Below are positions 3,612 through 15,457 of a DNA stretch of 40,815 nucleotides, in pieces. Source of the stretch: a virus; IMG/VR virus record IMGVR_UViG_3300023107_000001, positions 1-40,815 of that record; one strand, written 5' to 3'. The translations under genes were made by a program, and so were the position numbers. Numbering within the stretch: position 1 is the stretch's first letter; each line of letters starts with the position of its first letter. The notes below the pieces were generated by a model. The model was not told the DNA's origin. It saw only the letters and a list, made by a program, of their open reading frames with translations, and ran no database searches.

Positions 3612-3869
3612 CATACTCATGCAAGCACCACATAATTTTTTTATAAAATTTTTTGAAAAAAGGATTTAAATGTGAGAGAGGTGAGGGATAAATATAAACA
3701 TAGTACCGGTACTAATTAAGGATCGCTATCAACACATTTCTTTAGAATATATCAATGTCGATGGGACCCTAGTACTTATATCTTTAGTTGATGGCGTAAC
3801 CGACCGTTCGTAACTGACTACCTACTCGGTTACTAGTATAGTACTGTTGTAGCATATGTGTGAGGGTGG

Positions 3870-4298
3870 TTATGCAGGTTCAGCGGGGTTCTTACTCTTG
3901 TTGATGATGAAATCAAAGGCTGCTGTAGCTATATCCTTAGCAGCATTCTGTGCTTCTGATTGCTCATAACCTCTATGCTTTCCACGTGTCTTCAATAGAA
4001 AACATCTCATAGCTGGCTCCTTACTCTCAATAGCATCTTGCCAAACAGCATCTTCTAGCTCATCAAGTATCCGCTCGCGTGCATCTTCTAATTCAAGCTT
4101 AAGCATTTCATCCTTATCAATGAAACGTCTAACTGTACCTCTTGTAGTACCTATTGATTCAGCTATACGAGATAGGTTACCATTCAGCTTCTTGATGAGT
4201 GGTTGAATCACATCTCTTTTTAATGGTATGCCTGGTTTAGGGTCTCTTGCTTTATCGCCAAGTTGTGCAGGTTTAGACTTTGATTTAGCAATTGGCAT
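3870..4298 (-). CDS. HTH DNA-binding protein, resembling a terminase small subunit or a regulator
   Basis: The HTH (NLSRIAESIGTTRGTVRRFI), followed by DARERILDELEDAVWQDA...CFLLKTRG, resembles the HTH-type TerS family. It is a lone minus-strand gene flanked by two long non-coding regions. Confidence 0.5.
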   Translation of the reverse strand: MPIAKSKSKPAQLGDKARDPKPGIPLKRDVIQPLIKKLNGNLSRIAESIGTTRGTVRRFIDKDEMLKLELEDARERILDELEDAVWQDAIESKEPAMRCFLLKTRGKHRGYEQSEAQNAAKDIATAAFDFIINKSKNPAEPA

Positions 4299-4588
4299 AT
4301 ATACACCTATTTAAATGTAACCCGCCTCAACCCGGCGTGGTGGTGGCGGTCAAGCCTGATTATACCAAACCATAACAGATCGACCAATTACTTGTCAAAA
4401 CATTTCTTTAGTCGTTGATTATCAATGACTTACGTGTAGATATATGCTTTATGTTATTTAACTTGTTATTTTATCAGTGATGTAGTATATTAGTGAGTAT
4501 AAGCAGCTAACAAGTCTCCTTAACTCTCAAACGAGAGCAAGTTGTAGCGGTTGGTGCTTACAATAAATACAGATAACAAGAGGTAAAC

Positions 4589-4774
4589 ATGCAATATTTT
4601 ATACTATTTTCTGAGTCCACAGAATACAAAGTCAAATACAGCGTACTAAAAACAATCATAAATCTATACAATCAAGGGGTATCAAACTTAACCTTGGTTG
4701 CGGAACTAACAAAATGTGTAGTCGAGATAGACAAAATTAACAAGACAGCAACTTACACGTGTGTAGGGGTTTAA
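4589..4774 (+). CDS. hypothetical protein (first gene of the rightward early block)
   Basis: ORF with an AGAGGT RBS. Its stop codon lies inside the first CRISPR-repeat mimic. Confidence 0.4.
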   Translation: MQYFILFSESTEYKVKYSVLKTIINLYNQGVSNLTLVAELTKCVVEIDKINKTATYTCVGV

Positions 4775-4884
4775 ACTGCCGTGTAGGCAGCTTAGAAATA
4801 TGAGGCTTTGTTTTACTACCGAATAGGTAGCTTAGAAATATGATGTCTTACGCTTATTATACTGCCGAATAGGCAGCAAACATC
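4771..4884 (+). CRISPR. Three tandem type I-F CRISPR-repeat-like units (mini-array or solitary-repeat mimic), not a canonical array
   Basis: Unit 1 is TTAAACTGCCGTGTAGGCAGCTTAGAAA (4771-4798). Unit 2 is TTTTACTACCGAATAGGTAGCTTAGAAA (4811-4838). Unit 3 is TTATACTGCCGAATAGGCAGCAAACATC (4857-4884). The hairpins are 5 bp with a 5-nt loop. The pseudo-spacers are 12 and 18 nt. Confidence 0.7.
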
Positions 4885-4901
4885 TTATTAAGGGGGATAT
4901 C

Positions 4902-5186
4902 ATGCCAAAAACAAAGAAAGGTAAGCGCGTTGAATGTGAACTAGGGTTAGTCGGTGGAATGTACTACAACAATTACGGTGTAGAGTGTTGGAAGCTAGAA
5001 GATGGAAATGTTTTCATGCAAGCTTTTCGCATGGGGAGAATGATTCACAATCATTGTATAGACATTCCATTTGACTACTTTGTGGAGAGATTTAGGGATA
5101 ACAGTAAGGGTGACGCAGATTTGGTGATTGACGCGCTGCAATTTCTAGACCCTGAGTTTGAAGACGCTGAAGAATGTATTATTTAA
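4902..5186 (+). CDS. hypothetical protein
   Basis: ORF with an AGGGGGA RBS, immediately downstream of the repeat mimics. Confidence 0.55.
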   Translation: MPKTKKGKRVECELGLVGGMYYNNYGVECWKLEDGNVFMQAFRMGRMIHNHCIDIPFDYFVERFRDNSKGDADLVIDALQFLDPEFEDAEECII

Positions 5187-5216
5187 GTGACTGCTTTTAA
5201 CAATAAAGGGGAATAA

Positions 5217-5444
5217 ATGAATAATTTTGAAGAACAAGAAGCTATTTTGAATACTATCAGGGACAGCTTAAGTGAATTGATGGGATTATCAAATAATGCT
5301 ATTAAAAGCGCGGATGTAGACACGTTAGAAGGTAACTGTATTAAAGATTTTAACTTGAAAAGGTTGAGGCTATACACGCTTCTAAAGGAGGCTACTTACC
5401 CTGGTAATGAGGCGCACAAGTTTTTAATGTTTACCCCTCATTGA
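5217..5444 (+). CDS. hypothetical protein
   Basis: ORF with an AGGGGA RBS. Confidence 0.5.
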   Translation: MNNFEEQEAILNTIRDSLSELMGLSNNAIKSADVDTLEGNCIKDFNLKRLRLYTLLKEATYPGNEAHKFLMFTPH

Positions 5445-5509
5445 TTTTAAGTCTTTCCCGGGTGCATTAGCAATAGTGCACCTTGATAAACACTTAAACA
5501 GGAGTATAT

Positions 5510-5830
5510 ATGAGACAAGAAGTTACAACATCTAATTTAGCAGACTTTGGAAGCCGTGAAAGATGGATGCTAGTTGAACTCTTAACAGCGTGGGACAAAC
5601 AAGGCTTGCCTGACGACTTTTACGAAGAGGACACAGTAGCTATGATGAATAGAAATAGCGGTTTTGTATTCTTAACTAACAGTGAATATCAAACAGCTAT
5701 GATGAATGGTGACAAGTTAGAGATGTGGCATAATTGCTCAAATTGTGGGCATGAGGGCTTTCAAGAGGATTGTCAATTAAACGATAACGGTTGCAATGAA
5801 TGCAATCCAGAAGAAGGAGAAGAAGAATGA
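5510..5830 (+). CDS. hypothetical acidic protein with a C-terminal Cys knuckle (CSNCGH...CQLNDNGCNEC)
   Basis: ORF with an AGGAG RBS. Confidence 0.55.
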   Translation: MRQEVTTSNLADFGSRERWMLVELLTAWDKQGLPDDFYEEDTVAMMNRNSGFVFLTNSEYQTAMMNGDKLEMWHNCSNCGHEGFQEDCQLNDNGCNECNPEEGEEE

Positions 5831-6039
5831 TTGAAAGTGAAAAACGGGGCGCGACTTACGCCCCGCAAAACGAATGGTATCTACATAATAGCAAAGCCGT
5901 GCAGGGATTGCAAGAAGTTAGAGACATAGCTTTATACTTAGCTAAAAAATACCGCTGGGACCCTATGCTAGGGCGAGCGCATGAGGAATATTTAAACATC
6001 TTAAATAAAATATTGGTGGAGTGTACAGGTGAACGATGA
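5827..6039 (+). CDS. hypothetical protein
   Basis: The start is moved to the ATG at 5827, which overlaps the upstream stop as ATGA. The track ORF starts at 5800. Confidence 0.5.
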   Translation: MIESEKRGATYAPQNEWYLHNSKAVQGLQEVRDIALYLAKKYRWDPMLGRAHEEYLNILNKILVECTGER

Positions 6040-6268
6040 ACATAACGAGTTGCAAGAAGACTTGCTAGCTCTAATAGATAAACATAGCAGTATTTTACCC
6101 AAGCATAGGCTTGGGTATGAGCTCATAAAATTAAGCGTTAAAATGTTAATGGACCTGGCTCCTCGACATAAGATAGCTATAGACACAATAAGAATGGCTA
6201 CAGATGAGGGTTTAATGTGGCACGTAGAAGAAAGAAAAGATCAAAATAAAGGTAGGCATTATGAATGA
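6029..6268 (+). CDS. hypothetical protein
   Basis: GTG start behind a GGTGGAG RBS. Confidence 0.45.
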   Translation: MNDEHNELQEDLLALIDKHSSILPKHRLGYELIKLSVKMLMDLAPRHKIAIDTIRMATDEGLMWHVEERKDQNKGRHYE

Positions 6269-6449
6269 AAGTTGGATGCAAGTATTTGCGCTTTTCTTAG
6301 CTAACGCCGGATTAATCATCTGGTTTAGGGCTGAAAGTCGCTCGGACCATAGACAATGCATAGATTTAATTATTTCTATACAAAATGAAATGAAAGACTT
6401 TCACGGAAGGCTTTGCGCAATAGAAGAGCGCAAGAAGAATAACAAGTAA
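6261..6449 (+). CDS. small membrane protein (one TM)
   Basis: TM segment VFALFLANAGLIIWF. Confidence 0.5.
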   Translation: MNESWMQVFALFLANAGLIIWFRAESRSDHRQCIDLIISIQNEMKDFHGRLCAIEERKKNNK

Positions 6450-6457
6450 GGCGTTAT

Positions 6458-6787
6458 ATGATATTAAATCATAAACAATTAGAAAAGCTTAAAGCCAATT
6501 GGGGTGAAAAAGCCGACGGTATGGAATGTAAAGCAGAGGTGAGGGTTTACGACCCTCTCTCTAAAATAGAGTTTTACATCTACGCGCTTAATCCCGATAA
6601 CGACGATGATATAATGTTTCTAGGTGTGAGCGACAACTTAGAGCTAGGCCAGTGGAGCATGCAAAGCCTTAAGAGTTTTTACAACGCTCATGGTGAGCCT
6701 TTGACAGTAGATCAAGAATACAGACCAAGATACATAAACGAGATATTTAAAAAGCTTATGAGGAATAACTATGAATACAGAAATTAA
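6458..6787 (+). CDS. DUF2958-like protein
   Basis: The pattern KAEVRVYDPLSKIEFYIYALNPDNDD.MFLGVSD.LELGQWSMQSL matches DUF2958 as remembered (KfF.p.g.wtWy..E.d...fG.v.g.e.E.G). Confidence 0.6.
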   Translation: MILNHKQLEKLKANWGEKADGMECKAEVRVYDPLSKIEFYIYALNPDNDDDIMFLGVSDNLELGQWSMQSLKSFYNAHGEPLTVDQEYRPRYINEIFKKLMRNNYEYRN

Positions 6788-6947
6788 ATCAATTAGAGAG
6801 AAGTTAGGCTTAACGCAAGAGGCTTTCGCCTACAGACTAGGAGTATCAGTTCAGACAATAACAAAATGGGAAACAGGGAAGCATAAGCCATCTAACTTAG
6901 CAGTTCAAAAGATTAAACAATTTGGAGAACAGCATGAAAGAAATTAA
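6771..6947 (+). CDS. XRE/Cro-type HTH regulator (58 aa, below the ORF-track cutoff)
   Basis: Manual translation MNTEIKSIREKLGLTQEAFAYRLGVSVQTITKWETGKHKPSNLAVQKIKQFGEQHERN. It carries the canonical LTQ..A..lGVs..ti..WE.G motif. Confidence 0.6.
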   Translation: MNTEIKSIREKLGLTQEAFAYRLGVSVQTITKWETGKHKPSNLAVQKIKQFGEQHERN

Positions 6948-7260
6948 GTTTGTTAATGCAGAGGATTTAAATAGCTTAGAAGATTATGGAGCTGCCTTAT
7001 TAAGCTCTTTAATCTCTCTAAAAACATTAGAAGCATTCCACATAGCAGCATTTAACAAGGGTTTGCTAGATGAGGACGAAGCGGAGACAGGAAAAACTAT
7101 TTGTTGGGAAATACAGCGTTTAATAGCACTCTATAAAACTCAAATTGAAAACGTGTTGGATAGAACAGACTTAAGCGAGGAAGATGTGATTAATAGCTTA
7201 AAGTCTATCATGCCAAATATCAAAATGCCTCGCAAAAAGAAGAAAGATGGGAAAAGTTAG
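6934..7260 (+). CDS. hypothetical protein
   Basis: The start is moved to the ATG at 6934 behind a GGAGAA RBS. Confidence 0.5.
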   Translation: MKEIKFVNAEDLNSLEDYGAALLSSLISLKTLEAFHIAAFNKGLLDEDEAETGKTICWEIQRLIALYKTQIENVLDRTDLSEEDVINSLKSIMPNIKMPRKKKKDGKS

Positions 7261-13936: not shown

Positions 13937-14482
13937 ATGATCGACTCTGTAAAGTCTAGAGAAAACTATTTGCGCGTAACCAGCGTACTATATCCATTCA
14001 GTGGTTTACAGGCTATAAACCCCGACATTGTCGCTTATGCCGCTGAGCGCGGAACAAAAGTTCACAAGATTTGTGAGGGAATAGCCGAAGGAATTGGGGA
14101 AATCGGCGTCGAAGATGAGACTTGGGGGTACGTTGAATCATTTAAAAAGTGGTGGGATTCTGGCATAGACGTTGTCAAAATTGAACAACGCTTTTGGGAT
14201 GATGAACTTTACATCACGGGTCAGGTTGATTTTATCACAAATACTGATAAAGGCATGGCTATTGTAGATATAAAAACCTCATCTCGGCCGTCTAAAACCT
14301 GGCAAGCTCAAGGCTCTGCCTACGCCTATTTAGCTAAAAATAATGGCTATGACATCAAAAGAATCATTTTTCTACATCTAAACAAACATGGCAAAGAGCC
14401 GAAGCTATACGAATACCCTGTTGATGATTCATTTTTTCTAGCTATTTTAAGAACTTATAAACATTTCTATCACAAGGATTGA
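13937..14482 (+). CDS. PD-(D/E)XK nuclease (Cas4/RecB-like exonuclease without a Cys cluster)
   Basis: GTKVH, GQVDF, IVDIKTS and QAQGSAYAYL (QxxxY) motifs in the canonical order. It lies upstream of RecT. Confidence 0.7.
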   Translation: MIDSVKSRENYLRVTSVLYPFSGLQAINPDIVAYAAERGTKVHKICEGIAEGIGEIGVEDETWGYVESFKKWWDSGIDVVKIEQRFWDDELYITGQVDFITNTDKGMAIVDIKTSSRPSKTWQAQGSAYAYLAKNNGYDIKRIIFLHLNKHGKEPKLYEYPVDDSFFLAILRTYKHFYHKD

Positions 14483-14674: not shown

Positions 14675-15457
14675 ATGAATGAAATTGTGCTAAAACAACA
14701 ATCATATCAGTCAGGCGCGCCAAGCGAACATGAGATGATGGTTTTCCATACCATGGCTGAGCATGCAGTATCTAGCAAAATGTATAAAGGCGTAGGCGAA
14801 AAGGCCGCGGTGATGATGATCATGCTCTCAGCTAGAGAACTAGGGGTTCCTCCATGCCAAGCGCTTAACGGCGGATTGAACATTATCCAAGGTAAAGTAG
14901 AGATTTCAGCTCGTATGATGTCTGCACTAATTCGGAAAGCTGGACACCAAATTAAAGTTCAAGAGTGTACAGAGTTACAATGCACTTTAGTTGGTAAACG
15001 CGGAGATACAGGCGAAACCCAAGAAGCTTCTTTTTCAGTCGCTGAAGCTCAAAAAGCAGGGTTGGTTAAACCTGGCGGCGGATGGTCTAAATGGCCAAAA
15101 GACATGTGCTTTGCAAGAGCTTTGAGCCGCTTAGCTAGACAGCTCTTTAGCGACGTGATAGGGATTGGCTACGTAGAAGGTGAAATCAGCGCGGCTGAAT
15201 CAAAACCTGTAGAGCCTGAGCTTTTAAAAGCGGAAGAGTTTGTTGAGATTGAAAATGAGCAAGATTATATTGATAAATTTCTAGAGATATTTGATAAAGA
15301 AGACAAACATCATGCAATGGAATATTTAAGAGTCGTCCAAAAACACTTTGATTGGTCACCCGTTCAGACAATAAAAGAACTTCTAAAAGATGAGAAGCGC
15401 TTATTTGTTAAATTTAGCCATTGGAAGAGTAAAATTCAACAAGCTGAGGCAGCATGA
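14675..15457 (+). CDS. recT: RecT-family single-strand annealing protein
   Basis: ARELGVPPCQALNGGLNIIQGK...AEAQKAGL...GGWSKWPKDMCFARALSRLARQLF matches the RecT pattern. Confidence 0.7.
   Translation: MNEIVLKQQSYQSGAPSEHEMMVFHTMAEHAVSSKMYKGVGEKAAVMMIMLSARELGVPPCQALNGGLNIIQGKVEISARMMSALIRKAGHQIKVQECTELQCTLVGKRGDTGETQEASFSVAEAQKAGLVKPGGGWSKWPKDMCFARALSRLARQLFSDVIGIGYVEGEISAAESKPVEPELLKAEEFVEIENEQDYIDKFLEIFDKEDKHHAMEYLRVVQKHFDWSPVQTIKELLKDEKRLFVKFSHWKSKIQQAEAA

What the first reader, a model, noticed from the sequence alone, without database searches (positions are those of the whole stretch)
4771..4884. Three tandem type I-F CRISPR-repeat mimics with 12- and 18-nt pseudo-spacers in the early operon: candidate RNA anti-CRISPR or hijacker mini-array
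**What the sequence shows.** The non-coding gap between the ORFs ending at 4774 and starting at 4902 holds three units. Each has a 5-bp stem and 5-nt loop: CTGCC-GTGTA-GGCAG (4776-4790), CTACC-GAATA-GGTAG (4816-4830) and CTGCC-GAATA-GGCAG (4862-4876). The first two are followed by CTTAGAAA. Unit 1, ACTGCCGTGTAGGCAGCTTAGAAA, is essentially the consensus type I-F repeat (GTTCACTGCCGTGTAGGCAGCT(T/A)AGAAA).

**What is established.** Cas6f (Csy4) recognises exactly this hairpin and cleaves at its 3' base, leaving the 8-nt CU(U/A)AGAAA handle.

**Evidence for RNA-level selection.** Unit 2 carries a compensatory double change in the stem (G to A paired with C to T), which points to selection on RNA structure.

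**Why it is not a canonical array.** The repeat period is 40 and 46 nt, not about 60. That leaves pseudo-spacers of only 12 and 18 nt, both starting TATGA, and these are too short for canonical interference.

**Inference.** Transcribed early, the locus would give Cas6f-processable mini-crRNAs. These could titrate Cas6f and Cas7f or nucleate aberrant Cascade, as described for RNA anti-CRISPRs built from solitary repeat units. The architecture here is unusual: three units, graded spacer lengths, and a last unit with no handle. It also implies that the host carries a type I-F system.
Basis: partly seen in the sequence, partly recalled or inferred. Interest (0 to 1): 0.9.

Follow-up and report, generated by a model that had tools for sequence, protein, structure and literature searches.

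The report
Phage mini-array mimicking type I-F crRNAs
A phage from a metagenome carries three copies of a type I-F CRISPR repeat separated by 12- and 18-base guide-like inserts, which most likely hijack the host's own Cas proteins to switch off CRISPR defence; elements of this kind have been described since 2023, so this is a new example, not a new principle.

Summary
Three same-strand I-F repeat-like hairpins lie at 4776-4790, 4816-4830 and 4862-4876. The first two carry the CTTAGAAA handle, and the inserts are 12 and 18 nt, both starting TATGA. Rfam CRISPR-DR4 scores are 30.5, 34.7 and 17.6 bits. No other such hairpin occurs in the 40.8-kb window.

The element is not a solitary-repeat Racr. 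It matches phage-encoded regulatory mini-arrays, also called viral crlRNAs or "Cracr arrays" (Shmakov 2023; Liu et al. preprint 2024-26).
- Its second unit, with an 18-nt insert and a last repeat lacking the handle, has the geometry of the Pseudomonas phage LESphi3 mini-array that sits beside acrIF24.
- Twenty-six IMG/VR contigs carry comparable arrays, with inserts of 8-26 nt, mostly 14 or 17-20.
- Host I-F loci carry similar mini-arrays with PAM-flanked self-targets at the csy1 promoter.
- Viral arrays, including this one, have no self-target.

Both inserts share the TATGA seed typical of one I-F clade with a short Csy1: 6 of 11 clade members against 0 of 70 other host crlRNAs. No exact target or host was found.

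The module ORF61-array-ORF94-ORF75 is an accessory insertion, absent from about 12 syntenic relatives.

Verdict: a new member of a known kind. Its unusual points are the 12-nt insert and the lack of acrIF24.

The parts
4463..4491 (+). Promoter-like site TTGTTA-17-TATATT. It lies upstream of ORF61 and the array and is the candidate early promoter. A divergent promoter-like site for ORF142 lies on the - strand at 4398-4369.
   Evidence: Consensus scan. It is a pattern match only and transcription has not been shown. No terminator-like site was found in 3800-5600.
4589..4774 (+). ORF61, a 61-aa orphan. Its TAA stop (4772-4774) lies inside the 5' flank of psiR1. It is missing from the near-identical relative L012.
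   Evidence: No family match. The only PDB hit is weak (E=0.0027, to I-MsoI).
4769..4798 (+). psiR1, an I-F repeat mimic. Hairpin 4776-4790 (CTGCC-GTGTA-GGCAG) and 8-nt handle CTTAGAAA at 4791-4798. The predicted Cas6f cut is after G4790.
   Evidence: Rfam CRISPR-DR4, 30.5 bits, E=2.3e-4; sequence; predicted hairpin.
4799..4810 (+). psiS1, a 12-nt guide-like insert TATGAGGCTTTG. The predicted mature RNA is 4791-4830, 40 nt: 8-nt handle, 12 nt, then the 20-nt hairpin part.
   Evidence: It agrees with psiS2 at 8 of 10 pairing positions and differs at both flipped positions, 6 and 12. No PAM-flanked target in the phage above chance.
4811..4838 (+). psiR2, an I-F repeat mimic. Hairpin 4816-4830 (CTACC-GAATA-GGTAG) and handle CTTAGAAA at 4831-4838.
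   Evidence: Rfam CRISPR-DR4, 34.7 bits, E=1.1e-5, all 28 model positions.
4839..4856 (+). psiS2, an 18-nt guide-like insert TATGATGTCTTACGCTTA. The predicted mature RNA is 4831-4876, 46 nt.
   Evidence: The insert length equals that of the mini-array beside acrIF24 in Pseudomonas phage LESphi3, and 46 nt is the mature size reported for CracrIF1. The best host match is the L167 csy1-promoter target, 9 of 10 pairing positions. The insert is identical in L012.
4857..4884 (+). psiR3, the last repeat. Hairpin 4862-4876 (CTGCC-GAATA-GGCAG) is intact. The 3' handle is replaced by CAAACATC (4877-4884).
   Evidence: Rfam partial match, 17.6 bits, over the hairpin only. The LESphi3 mini-array and most viral arrays also have a handle-less last repeat.
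4902..5186 (+). ORF94, a 94-aa orphan directly downstream (SD GGGGG at 4892-4896). It is a candidate co-transcribed anti-defence protein of unknown function.
   Evidence: No homologues beyond its own cluster. No NCBIfam, Pfam or PHROG match. No PDB sequence hit. AF2 pLDDT 61 and no fold match.
5217..5444 (+). ORF75, a 75-aa orphan and the last gene of the lineage-specific module.
   Evidence: Absent from syntenic relatives.
4558..5500 (.). Accessory module ORF61-array-ORF94-ORF75. It is inserted between the ORF142 gene (3870-4298, - strand) and the conserved early gene o106 (5510-5830). The limits are approximate.
   Evidence: Relatives L176/L290, L240, L243/L179, L275, L281, L284, L288/L183, L289 and L298 keep ORF142 and o106/o109/HTH/o108/ParB but have none of these four elements. 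L012 lacks about 4558-4787.

Best explanation
The locus is a phage-encoded type I-F regulatory mini-array, that is, a viral crRNA-like RNA array of the kind called a 'Cracr array'.

**Proposed mechanism.**
1. The array is transcribed with the first genes of the early operon.
2. The host's Cas6f cuts the transcript after each hairpin (after G4790, G4830 and G4876).
3. This yields two mini-crRNAs of 40 and 46 nt. Each has a genuine 8-nt 5' handle, a 12- or 18-nt guide, and a Cas6f-bound 3' hairpin.
4. These RNAs load Cas8f-Cas5f, a shortened Cas7f backbone (about 2-4 subunits) and Cas6f. That takes Cas proteins away from the host's antiviral crRNAs.
5. The guides are too short to license Cas2/3 cleavage. 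Instead they direct the small complexes to a CC-flanked site at the promoter of the host csy (cas8f) operon, or of an associated toxin gene, and repress it.
6. The two guides are variants of one seed (TATGA-n-G..TT) and probably cover two promoter variants of related hosts.
7. The upstream cleavage product, the leader and ORF61 mRNA ending in hairpin 1, has no handle and would additionally act like a Racr.

**Shown:** the anatomy, the match to the I-F repeat family, the equivalence to the LESphi3 mini-array beside acrIF24, the absence of a self-target, and the accessory nature of the module.

**Inferred:** transcription, processing, complex formation, the identity of the target, and the anti-CRISPR effect.
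For: 1. Three I-F repeat mimics lie on the coding strand and are far beyond chance.
2. The handle CTTAGAAA is intact before both inserts and lost after the last hairpin. The LESphi3 mini-array beside acrIF24 shows the same pattern, with an 18-nt insert. So do most of the viral mini-arrays on 26 IMG/VR contigs. A mimic that works through the hairpin alone would not need the handle: RacrIF1 still inhibits when its handle is mutated.
3. The predicted 46-nt product equals the mature CracrIF1 size reported by Liu et al., and the 18-nt insert falls in their viral range of 17-21 nt.
4. In the host loci I fetched, most mini-arrays have a CC-flanked self-target 38-185 bp from the guide, usually upstream on the same strand. 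It matches 8-17 consecutive pairing positions. Where guide and target differ within the matched stretch, the difference is usually at a sixth position. Viral arrays, including this one, have none. This is the published host/virus distinction.
5. psiS1 and psiS2 agree at 8 of 10 pairing positions and differ at both non-pairing positions, 6 and 12.
6. Both start with TATGA. That seed occurs in 6 of 11 crlRNAs of the short-Csy1 I-F clade, fetched by protein homology. It occurs in 0 of 70 host crlRNAs from an unbiased scan (Fisher p=1.4e-6). In that clade the PAM sits 0-2 nt from a -35-like hexamer upstream of csy1.
7. psiS2 matches the L167 target at 9 of 10 pairing positions; 25 of 2000 shuffles do as well.
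8. Host crlRNAs with guides of only 13-15 nt and perfect 10-12-bp targets exist, so a 12-nt guide with 10 pairing positions is plausible.
9. The array sits in a lineage-specific module of small orphan ORFs at the head of the early operon, as anti-defence loci typically do.
Against: - No exact or near-exact PAM-flanked target, and no host crlRNA with at least 9 consecutive matching seed positions, was found for either insert. The published operational criterion for a Cracr is therefore not met.
- The host is unknown. None of about 1,400 I-F spacers from the fetched host loci matches the phage group.
- The 12-nt insert is shorter than any guide for which I found a self-target (the minimum is 13 nt) and lies outside the published viral range.
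- The close relative L012 has lost the first hairpin but keeps psiS1. Unit 1 is therefore dispensable, or is not processed as a guide there.
- No acrIF24 or any other recognisable acr or aca gene lies nearby.
- Part of the TATGA evidence is post hoc: the clade was reached through a scan that was conditioned on TATG.
- Transcription is inferred from a consensus promoter match only.
Confidence: 0.6

Rival explanations
1. A tandem Racr-like decoy. The hairpins only bind and sequester Cas6f and nucleate Cas7f, or incomplete Csy complexes. The inserts are mere linkers with no target, and inhibition works by titration alone.
For: - The hairpins are the best-conserved parts.
- No target was found for either insert.
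- The 12-nt insert is very short.
- In L012 unit 1 has no upstream hairpin, so its product would have no handle, like RacrIF1.
- Liu et al. report that guide-mutated Cracrs still compete for Cas proteins.
Against: - The locus is not a solitary repeat unit, because three repeats lie within about 100 nt.
- The 8-nt handle is perfectly kept before both inserts and lost after the last hairpin. A hairpin-only decoy would not need that.
- The inserts resemble each other at pairing positions and share the seed of a specific host crlRNA clade.
- The 18-nt unit has the same insert length as the LESphi3 mini-array beside acrIF24.
Confidence: 0.22
2. A decaying remnant of a host CRISPR array, or of an older phage mini-array, carried as a passenger with no present function.
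For: - The module is absent from about 12 syntenic relatives.
- In L012 the module is partly deleted.
- Unit 1 has a 2-nt insertion in its 5' flank.
- Unit 3 has lost its handle.
Against: - All three hairpins and both internal handles are intact.
- The degeneration falls only where validated mini-arrays also degenerate, namely the first 5' flank and the last handle.
- Canonical 32-nt spacers do not shrink to 12 and 18 nt by point decay.
- The psiR2-psiS2-psiR3 core differs from L012 only in the psiR3 loop, while the ORF142 region next to it has diverged to 59% amino-acid identity.
Confidence: 0.08
3. A mini-CRISPR array for conflict between viruses, or self-regulation through host Cascade. The guides would direct host Cas proteins against a competing phage or plasmid, or against the phage's own promoters.
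For: Viral mini-arrays that target other viruses are known (cited).
Against: - Guides of 12 and 18 nt cannot support I-F interference. Shortened crlRNAs bind but do not cleave.
- CC-flanked matches within the phage genome are no more frequent than chance.
- In IMG/VR the insert sequences occur with a repeat only in L012. The 39 other hits to the 16-mer lie in ordinary sequence with no repeat beside them.
Confidence: 0.04
4. A translational switch actuated by Cas6f, which need not exclude the other readings. psiS2 pairs with the SD and start codon of ORF94. Cas6f cleavage after hairpin 3 would release that region, so ORF94 is made only in cells with an active I-F system.
For: - A 10-bp helix can form between 4839-4848 and 4895-4904.
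- The 75-nt fold gives -19.8 kcal/mol, z=-3.15, with 0 of 200 shuffles as stable.
- The duplex test gives z=-2.5, with 9 of 300 shuffles as stable.
Against: - The feature is not general. Across 21 viral arrays the median z is 0.05, so one value near p=0.03 is expected by chance.
- In L024 only a weak 6-bp helix appears, and it is absent from the centroid.
- There is no covariation to test.
Confidence: 0.06

Closest known systems
CracrIF-type arrays: viral crlRNAs described by Liu et al., bioRxiv 10.1101/2024.10.29.618823. The compared example is the mini-array next to acrIF24 in Pseudomonas phage LESphi3 (OQ594956); a similar match lies in vB_PaS_IME307
   Same: - It is carried by a phage and lies outside any CRISPR-cas locus.
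- It has I-F repeat mimics with an intact hairpin and an 8-nt handle before the guide.
- The guide is 18 nt, giving a 46-nt RNA.
- The last repeat has only the hairpin.
- The loop is GAATA.
- Multi-guide arrays whose guides are variants of one target are described.
   Different: - There is no acrIF24 neighbour here.
- No terminator follows. The array sits between small ORFs inside an operon.
- One guide is only 12 nt, against the published viral range of 17-21.
- The target has not been identified, whereas the P. aeruginosa ones match creT or cas promoters.
Prophage regulatory mini-arrays of Shmakov et al. [quoted passage not shown]
   Same: - It has three repeats and two similar short spacers in a phage accessory region.
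- Conservation is centred on the seed.
- Sixth positions are free to vary.
- The phage spacers are shorter than the host ones.
   Different: For the published cases the cognate host I-F locus and promoter target are known. Here neither is known.
Host autoregulatory crlRNAs (CreR or CreA mini-arrays) of type I-F loci, for example P. aeruginosa YL84, and the short-Csy1 clade loci L167 and L224-L238 fetched here
   Same: - The RNA anatomy is the same: handle, short guide, hairpin.
- The TATGA seed is the same as in 6 of 11 clade members.
- Guides of 13-15 nt occur in hosts.
   Different: - Host elements lie between cas2-3 and csy1.
- Host elements have a CC-flanked self-target at about 50-190 bp. 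The phage array has no self-target and no cas neighbours.
RacrIF1 and other RNA anti-CRISPRs built from solitary repeat units (Camara-Wilpert et al. 2023, PMC10651486)
   Same: - It is a phage-borne mimic of the I-F repeat.
- Cas6f binding and processing are expected.
- It would compete for Cas proteins.
- The first cleavage product here, which has no handle, would resemble a Racr.
   Different: - Racrs are solitary by definition: repeats within 100 bp are excluded.
- The active Racr RNA lacks the 5' handle and forms a Cas6f-Cas7f subcomplex without Cas5f and Cas8f.
- Here there are three repeats, with handles placed so as to make complete mini-crRNAs.

Membership tests
Viral crlRNA / Cracr array (type I-F) | Encoded on a mobile element, outside a CRISPR-cas locus | tested here: met
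   The window is a complete, circularly permuted phage genome of about 40.8 kb. It has a portal, TerL, a major capsid protein, tail genes, replication genes and a serine recombinase. No cas gene was seen among the ORFs examined. The only related hit is a weak PDDEXK/Cas4-like match next to a RecT-like gene.
Viral crlRNA / Cracr array (type I-F) | Repeat-like sequences keep the Cas6f hairpin downstream of the guide and the 8-nt 5' handle upstream of it | tested here: met
   CTTAGAAA precedes both inserts, and 5-bp/5-nt hairpins follow both. Rfam CRISPR-DR4 gives E=1e-5 and E=2e-4.
Viral crlRNA / Cracr array (type I-F) | Guide shorter than a canonical 32-nt spacer (published viral I-F range mostly 17-21 nt) | tested here: met
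   psiS2 is 18 nt and within the range. psiS1 is 12 nt, shorter than the range. Viral arrays with 13-14-nt inserts (L011, L016, L023, L027) and host crlRNAs of 13-15 nt exist.
Viral crlRNA / Cracr array (type I-F) | The guide matches (at least 9 PAM-proximal bp) a host CreR/CreA guide, or a PAM-flanked site in a cas or creT promoter | tested here: inconclusive
   The best match is to the L167 csy1-promoter target, at 9 of 10 pairing positions of the first 12, with the mismatch at position 9. L233 gives 8 of 10. The TATGA seed is shared with a clade.
Viral crlRNA / Cracr array (type I-F) | No self-target in the element (this distinguishes it from host autoregulatory mini-arrays) | tested here: met
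   The best run in the window is 5 positions. Matches with 2 mismatches occur at the chance rate.
Viral crlRNA / Cracr array (type I-F) | Cas-dependent maturation and guide-dependent anti-CRISPR or promoter-silencing activity | not testable with these tools
   This needs sRNA-seq or northern blots, reporter assays and plating assays.
Viral crlRNA / Cracr array (type I-F) | Frequent, but not obligatory, linkage to acr genes, especially acrIF24 | tested here: not met
   No AcrIF24 or other Acr or Aca family was found in 4589-7260 by NCBIfam, Pfam or PHROGs. ORF61, ORF94 and ORF75 have no meaningful match among PDB sequences. The neighbours are orphan small ORFs. An HTH_3 protein lies at 6771-6947.
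Racr (solitary repeat unit RNA anti-CRISPR) | A single repeat-like unit with no other repeat within about 100 bp | tested here: not met
   There are three units within 108 nt. The SRUFinder rule is quoted.
Racr (solitary repeat unit RNA anti-CRISPR) | A Cas6f-recognisable stem-loop | tested here: met
Canonical CRISPR array or interference-competent mini-array | Spacers of about 32 nt (I-F) acquired by Cas1-Cas2, next to a leader and usually to cas genes | tested here: not met
   The inserts are 12 and 18 nt. No cas1, cas2-3 or csy genes were seen. The array lies between ORFs in an operon.
Rfam CRISPR-DR4 (RF01317) | Score at or above the gathering threshold of 35 bits | tested here: not met
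   The scores are 34.7, 30.5 and 17.6 bits. These are significant E-values but lie just under the curated cut-off, as expected for repeat mimics.

The most novel reading that the evidence does not exclude
The 12-nt unit is a working guide. It would be the shortest natural type I guide, forming a minimal Csy complex with only 2-3 Cas7f subunits that still finds a promoter through 10 base pairs plus the PAM.

Together with the 13-15-nt host crlRNAs that have perfect self-targets, seen here in at least 10 loci, this would define an 'ultra-short' class of regulatory Cascade complexes below the published ranges of 17-27 nt.

A further possibility is that the hosts of this abundant group of 40-kb phages belong to the short-Csy1 I-F clade, whose named members are Chlamydiota MAGs.
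Probability: 0.25. Interest if true: 0.6.

Novelty: new member of a known kind. Interest (0 to 1): 0.35.

Why it matters
- **A marker for the host.** The element indicates that this member of a very abundant, uncultured group of ~40-kb phages meets hosts armed with type I-F CRISPR-Cas. Its guides are in effect a 'fingerprint' of the host's csy promoter. A wider search for that promoter could identify the host.
- **A wider catalogue.** It extends viral crlRNA arrays to a lineage with no acrIF24. It also extends them to a 12-nt guide, which asks how few Cas7f subunits a functional regulatory Csy complex needs.
- **Candidate anti-defence genes.** The flanking orphan ORFs (ORF61, ORF94, ORF75) are reasonable candidates for new anti-defence proteins.
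- **No new principle.** Phage mimicry of regulatory mini-arrays has been published since 2023.

Tried and rejected
**Relatives and the insert sequences**
- Nucleotide relatives in INPHARED: none for 4300-5500 or 1-25000. Protein searches with the portal, the DnaC-like protein and the tail fibre gave only 22-35% identity to phages of mixed hosts, so they give no clue to the host.
- Supplementary tables of the Cracr preprint, to look up the inserts: not held.
- Viral scan for handle plus TATGAKG: of 40 hits, only L012 has a repeat beside the match. The other 39 lie in ordinary sequence with no repeat.
- Relatives found through ORF142 and TerL (9 and 72 loci): none carries I-F-like units apart from L178, which is the L012 contig.

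**Target and host**
- Self-targets of psiS1 and psiS2 in the phage: at chance level.
- Genome scan (stopped at 120 loci) and metagenome scan for short-spaced I-F repeats or TATG-starting inserts: many host crlRNAs, but none matches psiS1 or psiS2.
- The L014 site CC-TATGATGCCTTA lies in a coding region of a viral contig. I rejected it as chance.
- Host assignment by spacers: the best hit is 23 of 32 with a non-CC PAM, from Bisgaardia (L097), and I rejected it. No hit to the wider phage group.
- Eleven look-ups of Csy1 homologues from the L167 clade: they gave related TATGA, TGTGA and TATCA targets but no exact match.

**Neighbouring ORFs and the switch idea**
- ORF94 as an Acr: it is an orphan, with no match among PDB sequences. 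The AF2 model is of low confidence (pLDDT 61) and Foldseek finds nothing below E=0.3.
- The idea of a general Cas6f-gated RBS switch: not supported across the viral arrays.
Full report
**1. The observation**

The gap between the ORFs at 4589-4774 and 4902-5186 reads as follows.
- psiR1 is GTTTaaA-CTGCC-GTGTA-GGCAG-CTTAGAAA (4769-4798).
- psiS1 is TATGAGGCTTTG (4799-4810, 12 nt).
- psiR2 is TTTTA-CTACC-GAATA-GGTAG-CTTAGAAA (4811-4838).
- psiS2 is TATGATGTCTTACGCTTA (4839-4856, 18 nt).
- psiR3 is TTATA-CTGCC-GAATA-GGCAG (4857-4876), followed by CAAACATC.

Rfam's type I-F repeat model (CRISPR-DR4) matches all three units on the + strand. The scores are 34.7, 30.5 and 17.6 bits against a gathering score of 35. 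The hairpin pattern occurs only at these three places in the 40.8-kb window. Shuffles expect 0.31 occurrences, and 0 of 100 shuffles reach three.

**2. The setting**

The window is a metagenome contig, ena:ERZ27228645:k141_2147800, 40.9 kb. It encodes a portal, TerL, a major capsid protein, tail proteins, O/P-like replication proteins, a RecT-like protein, a ParB-like protein and a serine recombinase. A near-identical fragment, L012, bridges the window's two ends, so the genome is complete and circularly permuted.

The phage belongs to a very abundant uncultured group. Its portal is 82-94% identical to proteins in more than 100 clusters, and their longest contigs are typically 38-42 kb. It has no close relative among deposited phage genomes.

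The array is co-oriented with the early genes and lies downstream of a promoter-like site at 4463-4491. No terminator-like site is nearby.

**3. What kind of thing it is**

Two bodies of literature describe phage repeat mimics.

*Racrs* are solitary repeat units. Their pipeline removes repeats that lie within 100 bp of one another, as arrays or mini-arrays, before calling solitary repeats. The active RacrIF1 RNA lacks a 5' handle and builds a Cas6f-Cas7f subcomplex without Cas5f and Cas8f (PMC10651486).

*Regulatory mini-arrays* encode crRNA-like RNAs with shortened guides. These guides bind cas or toxin promoters but do not cleave them. Hosts use them for autoregulation, and phages copy them:
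- Shmakov et al. 2023 describe several, including a Moraxella prophage array of three repeats and two similar spacers.
- Liu et al. name the viral versions Cracr. They report hundreds of candidate I-F cracr genes from two searches, many multi-guide arrays and viral guides mostly of 17-21 nt. They also report mature CracrIF1 and CracrIF2 of 46 and 49 nt, and frequent linkage to acrIF24.

The window's element fits the second class.
- Handles are kept exactly where a guide follows and lost after the last hairpin.
- The predicted Cas6f products are 4791-4830 (40 nt) and 4831-4876 (46 nt).
- BLAST of the array against deposited phages returned two Pseudomonas phages, LESphi3 and vB_PaS_IME307.
- In LESphi3 the match lies directly downstream of an annotated acrIF24. 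It reads psiR(CTGCC-GAATA-GGTAG-CTAAGAAA), an 18-nt guide, then psiR(hairpin only). This is the same geometry as the window's unit 2.

**4. How common such arrays are**

A scan of IMG/VR for I-F repeat pairs spaced more closely than canonical arrays found 26 contigs. Their inserts are 8-26 nt, mostly 14 or 17-20, and most have a degenerate last handle.

The same pattern in GTDB genomes (stopped at 120 loci), and a TATG-restricted pattern in metagenomes (27 loci), returned mostly host loci. In these, most mini-arrays have a CC-flanked self-target 38-185 bp from the guide, usually upstream on the same strand. It matches 8-17 consecutive pairing positions. Where guide and target differ within the matched stretch, the difference is usually at a sixth position. 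The viral arrays, including the window's, have no self-target.

Several viral guides could be paired with host crlRNAs in this sample, for example L022 with L114, L010 with L117, and L006 with L104. This reproduces the published logic and validates the approach.

Host guides of only 13-15 nt with 10-12 of 10-12 matching pairing positions occur in at least 10 loci. A 12-nt guide, with 10 pairing positions, is therefore short but not absurd.

**5. The target**

No exact target or host crlRNA was found for psiS1 or psiS2. The nearest is the csy1-promoter target of metagenome contig L167, CC|TATGAAGTGTTATTTTTA. psiS2 matches it at 9 of the 10 pairing positions in the first 12 nt, and 25 of 2000 shuffles do as well.

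The Csy1 of L167 belongs to a clade of short (~395-aa) Csy1 proteins. The named members of this clade are Waddliaceae, Chlamydiales and Chlamydiota MAGs. I fetched 11 distinct loci of the clade by protein homology.
- All but one (L230, on a short contig) have the cas2-3 / csy1 gene order, and all 11 carry a crlRNA antisense to csy1 just upstream of it.
- Their guides start TATGA in 6 loci, TGTGA in 3 and TATCA in 2.
- By contrast, none of 70 host crlRNAs from the unbiased genome scan starts TATGA (Fisher p=1.4e-6).
- In the 10 loci analysed (nine of these and L167), the PAM lies 0-2 nt upstream of a -35-like hexamer. L226, for example, has TTGACA-17-TATATT.

Both window guides start TATGA. They agree with each other at 8 of 10 pairing positions and differ at both non-pairing positions.

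I read this as follows: the two guides aim at two variants of a csy-promoter site of this kind. The reading is an inference. Part of the evidence is post hoc, because L167 came from a scan that was conditioned on TATG.

Shmakov et al. note that phage mini-arrays co-occur with host systems lacking their own mini-array. If that holds here, a search for a host crlRNA would miss the true host.

**6. Conservation**

L012 is 96-100% identical to the window where the two align.
- It keeps psiR2-psiS2-psiR3 unchanged except for the psiR3 loop, which is GTGTA instead of GAATA.
- It lacks about 4558-4787, that is ORF61 and the 5' half of hairpin 1. The junction shows a GG microhomology, which suggests a deletion.

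The more distant relatives number 81 loci, found through ORF142 and TerL. About a dozen of them cover the syntenic interval from ORF142 to o106/o109. None carries ORF61, the array, ORF94 or ORF75.

The module is therefore a lineage-specific accessory insertion at the head of the early operon. This is typical of anti-defence cargo, but it leaves no covariation to analyse.

The distantly related contig L024 has the same layout. A small ORF is followed by an array with a related 19-nt guide, TATGTAGTCATATGCTTAT, and then by another ORF.

**7. Neighbouring genes**

ORF61, ORF94 and ORF75 are orphans.
- None matches NCBIfam, Pfam or PHROGs at a meaningful level.
- None has a meaningful match among PDB sequences.
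- ORF94 has no homologues outside its own cluster.
- Its AF2 model is of low confidence (pLDDT 61) and has no fold match.
- There is no acrIF24.

An HTH_3 protein lies further down the operon at 6771-6947.

**8. Side hypothesis**

psiS2 can pair with the SD and start codon of ORF94. The 75-nt fold gives z=-3.15 and the duplex test z=-2.5. This suggests that Cas6f cleavage might unmask translation of ORF94. The feature is not general among 21 viral arrays (median z 0.05), so I give it low weight.

**9. Verdict**

The better-fitting known class is the viral regulatory mini-array (Cracr), not the solitary-repeat Racr, and the architecture is not unusual.

| Reading | Confidence |
|---|---|
| Anti-I-F repeat mimic of some kind | about 0.85 |
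| Guide-dependent Cracr mechanism | about 0.6 |
| Pure decoy (Racr-like) | about 0.2 |

Novelty: a new member of a known kind. Three points are worth noting: the 12-nt guide, the absence of acrIF24, and an unidentified host whose csy promoter the guides may reveal.

Noticed in passing
Loci L043, L046, L096, L110, L111, L119, L120, L134, L142, L163, L235: Host type I-F loci carry ultra-short crRNA-like guides of 13-15 nt. Each has a CC-flanked self-target 79-172 bp from the guide that matches nearly all pairing positions (10/10 to 12/12; 10/11 or 12/13 in a few). Within the matched stretch the only mismatches are at nt 6 and 12. They make up 8 of 70 distinct host crlRNAs in the unbiased scan. 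This is below the 23-27-nt range quoted for host I-F CreR/CreA.
   Followed up: partly
Loci L167, L224-L238 and L036: A clade of I-F systems has a short (~395-aa) Csy1. NCBI names for its members are Waddliaceae, Chlamydiales and Chlamydiota MAGs. The clade carries a crlRNA antisense to csy1, between cas2-3 and csy1. The guide's PAM sits 0-2 nt upstream of a -35-like hexamer of the csy1 promoter, and the seed is conserved as T[A/G]T[G/C]A.
   Followed up: partly
Whole window; proteins P0122-P0241; loci L239-L310: The window is a complete, circularly permuted genome of a very abundant uncultured phage group of about 40 kb. Its portal is 82-94% identical to proteins in more than 100 clusters, typically on contigs of 38-42 kb. 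Deposited phage genomes contain no close relative. The host is unknown.
   Followed up: partly
Window 4299-5510 and the syntenic intervals in L176/L290, L240 and L275: The interval between ORF142 and the conserved early gene o106 is a variable hot spot. It measures 511-964 bp in relatives and 1212 bp here. Relatives have no homologues of ORF61, ORF94 or ORF75 there.
   Followed up: partly
Window 4839-4848 with 4895-4904: psiS2 is complementary to the SD and start-codon region of ORF94, forming a 10-bp helix that includes three G-U pairs. The 75-nt fold gives z=-3.15. The feature is not general among other viral mini-arrays.
   Followed up: yes
L012 (= L162/L178), rc coordinates about 5335-5450: A near-identical relative lacks ORF61 and the 5' half of hairpin 1 but keeps the handle and psiS1. 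Its last hairpin has the loop GTGTA, the window's psiR1 loop, instead of GAATA. This hints at a deletion or at recombination between the repeats.
   Followed up: partly
Window 13937-14482 and 14675-15457: A 181-aa protein with weak PDDEXK_1/Cas4 Pfam hits lies next to a RecT-like annealing protein. It is probably a phage recombination exonuclease and not a CRISPR component.
   Followed up: no
Window 6771-6947: A 58-aa HTH_3 (Xre/Cro-like) protein lies at the end of the run of small early ORFs. It could be a Cro-like or Aca-like regulator of the operon that carries the array.
   Followed up: no
L017 (1783-1846, - strand); L091 (3034-4460): L017 is a viral contig with two full I-F repeats only 8 nt apart. 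L091 is an Endozoicomonadaceae array with many irregular short spacers of 10-29 nt among canonical ones. Neither is explained.
   Followed up: no
L230 (ERZ27252312) and L238 (ERZ27246977), compared with the window's source ERZ27228645: Two loci of the short-Csy1 I-F clade come from the same ENA ERZ272xxxxx/k141 assembly series as the phage contig. This could mean a shared study or habitat. The scope of the series is unknown, so the evidence is weak.
   Followed up: no
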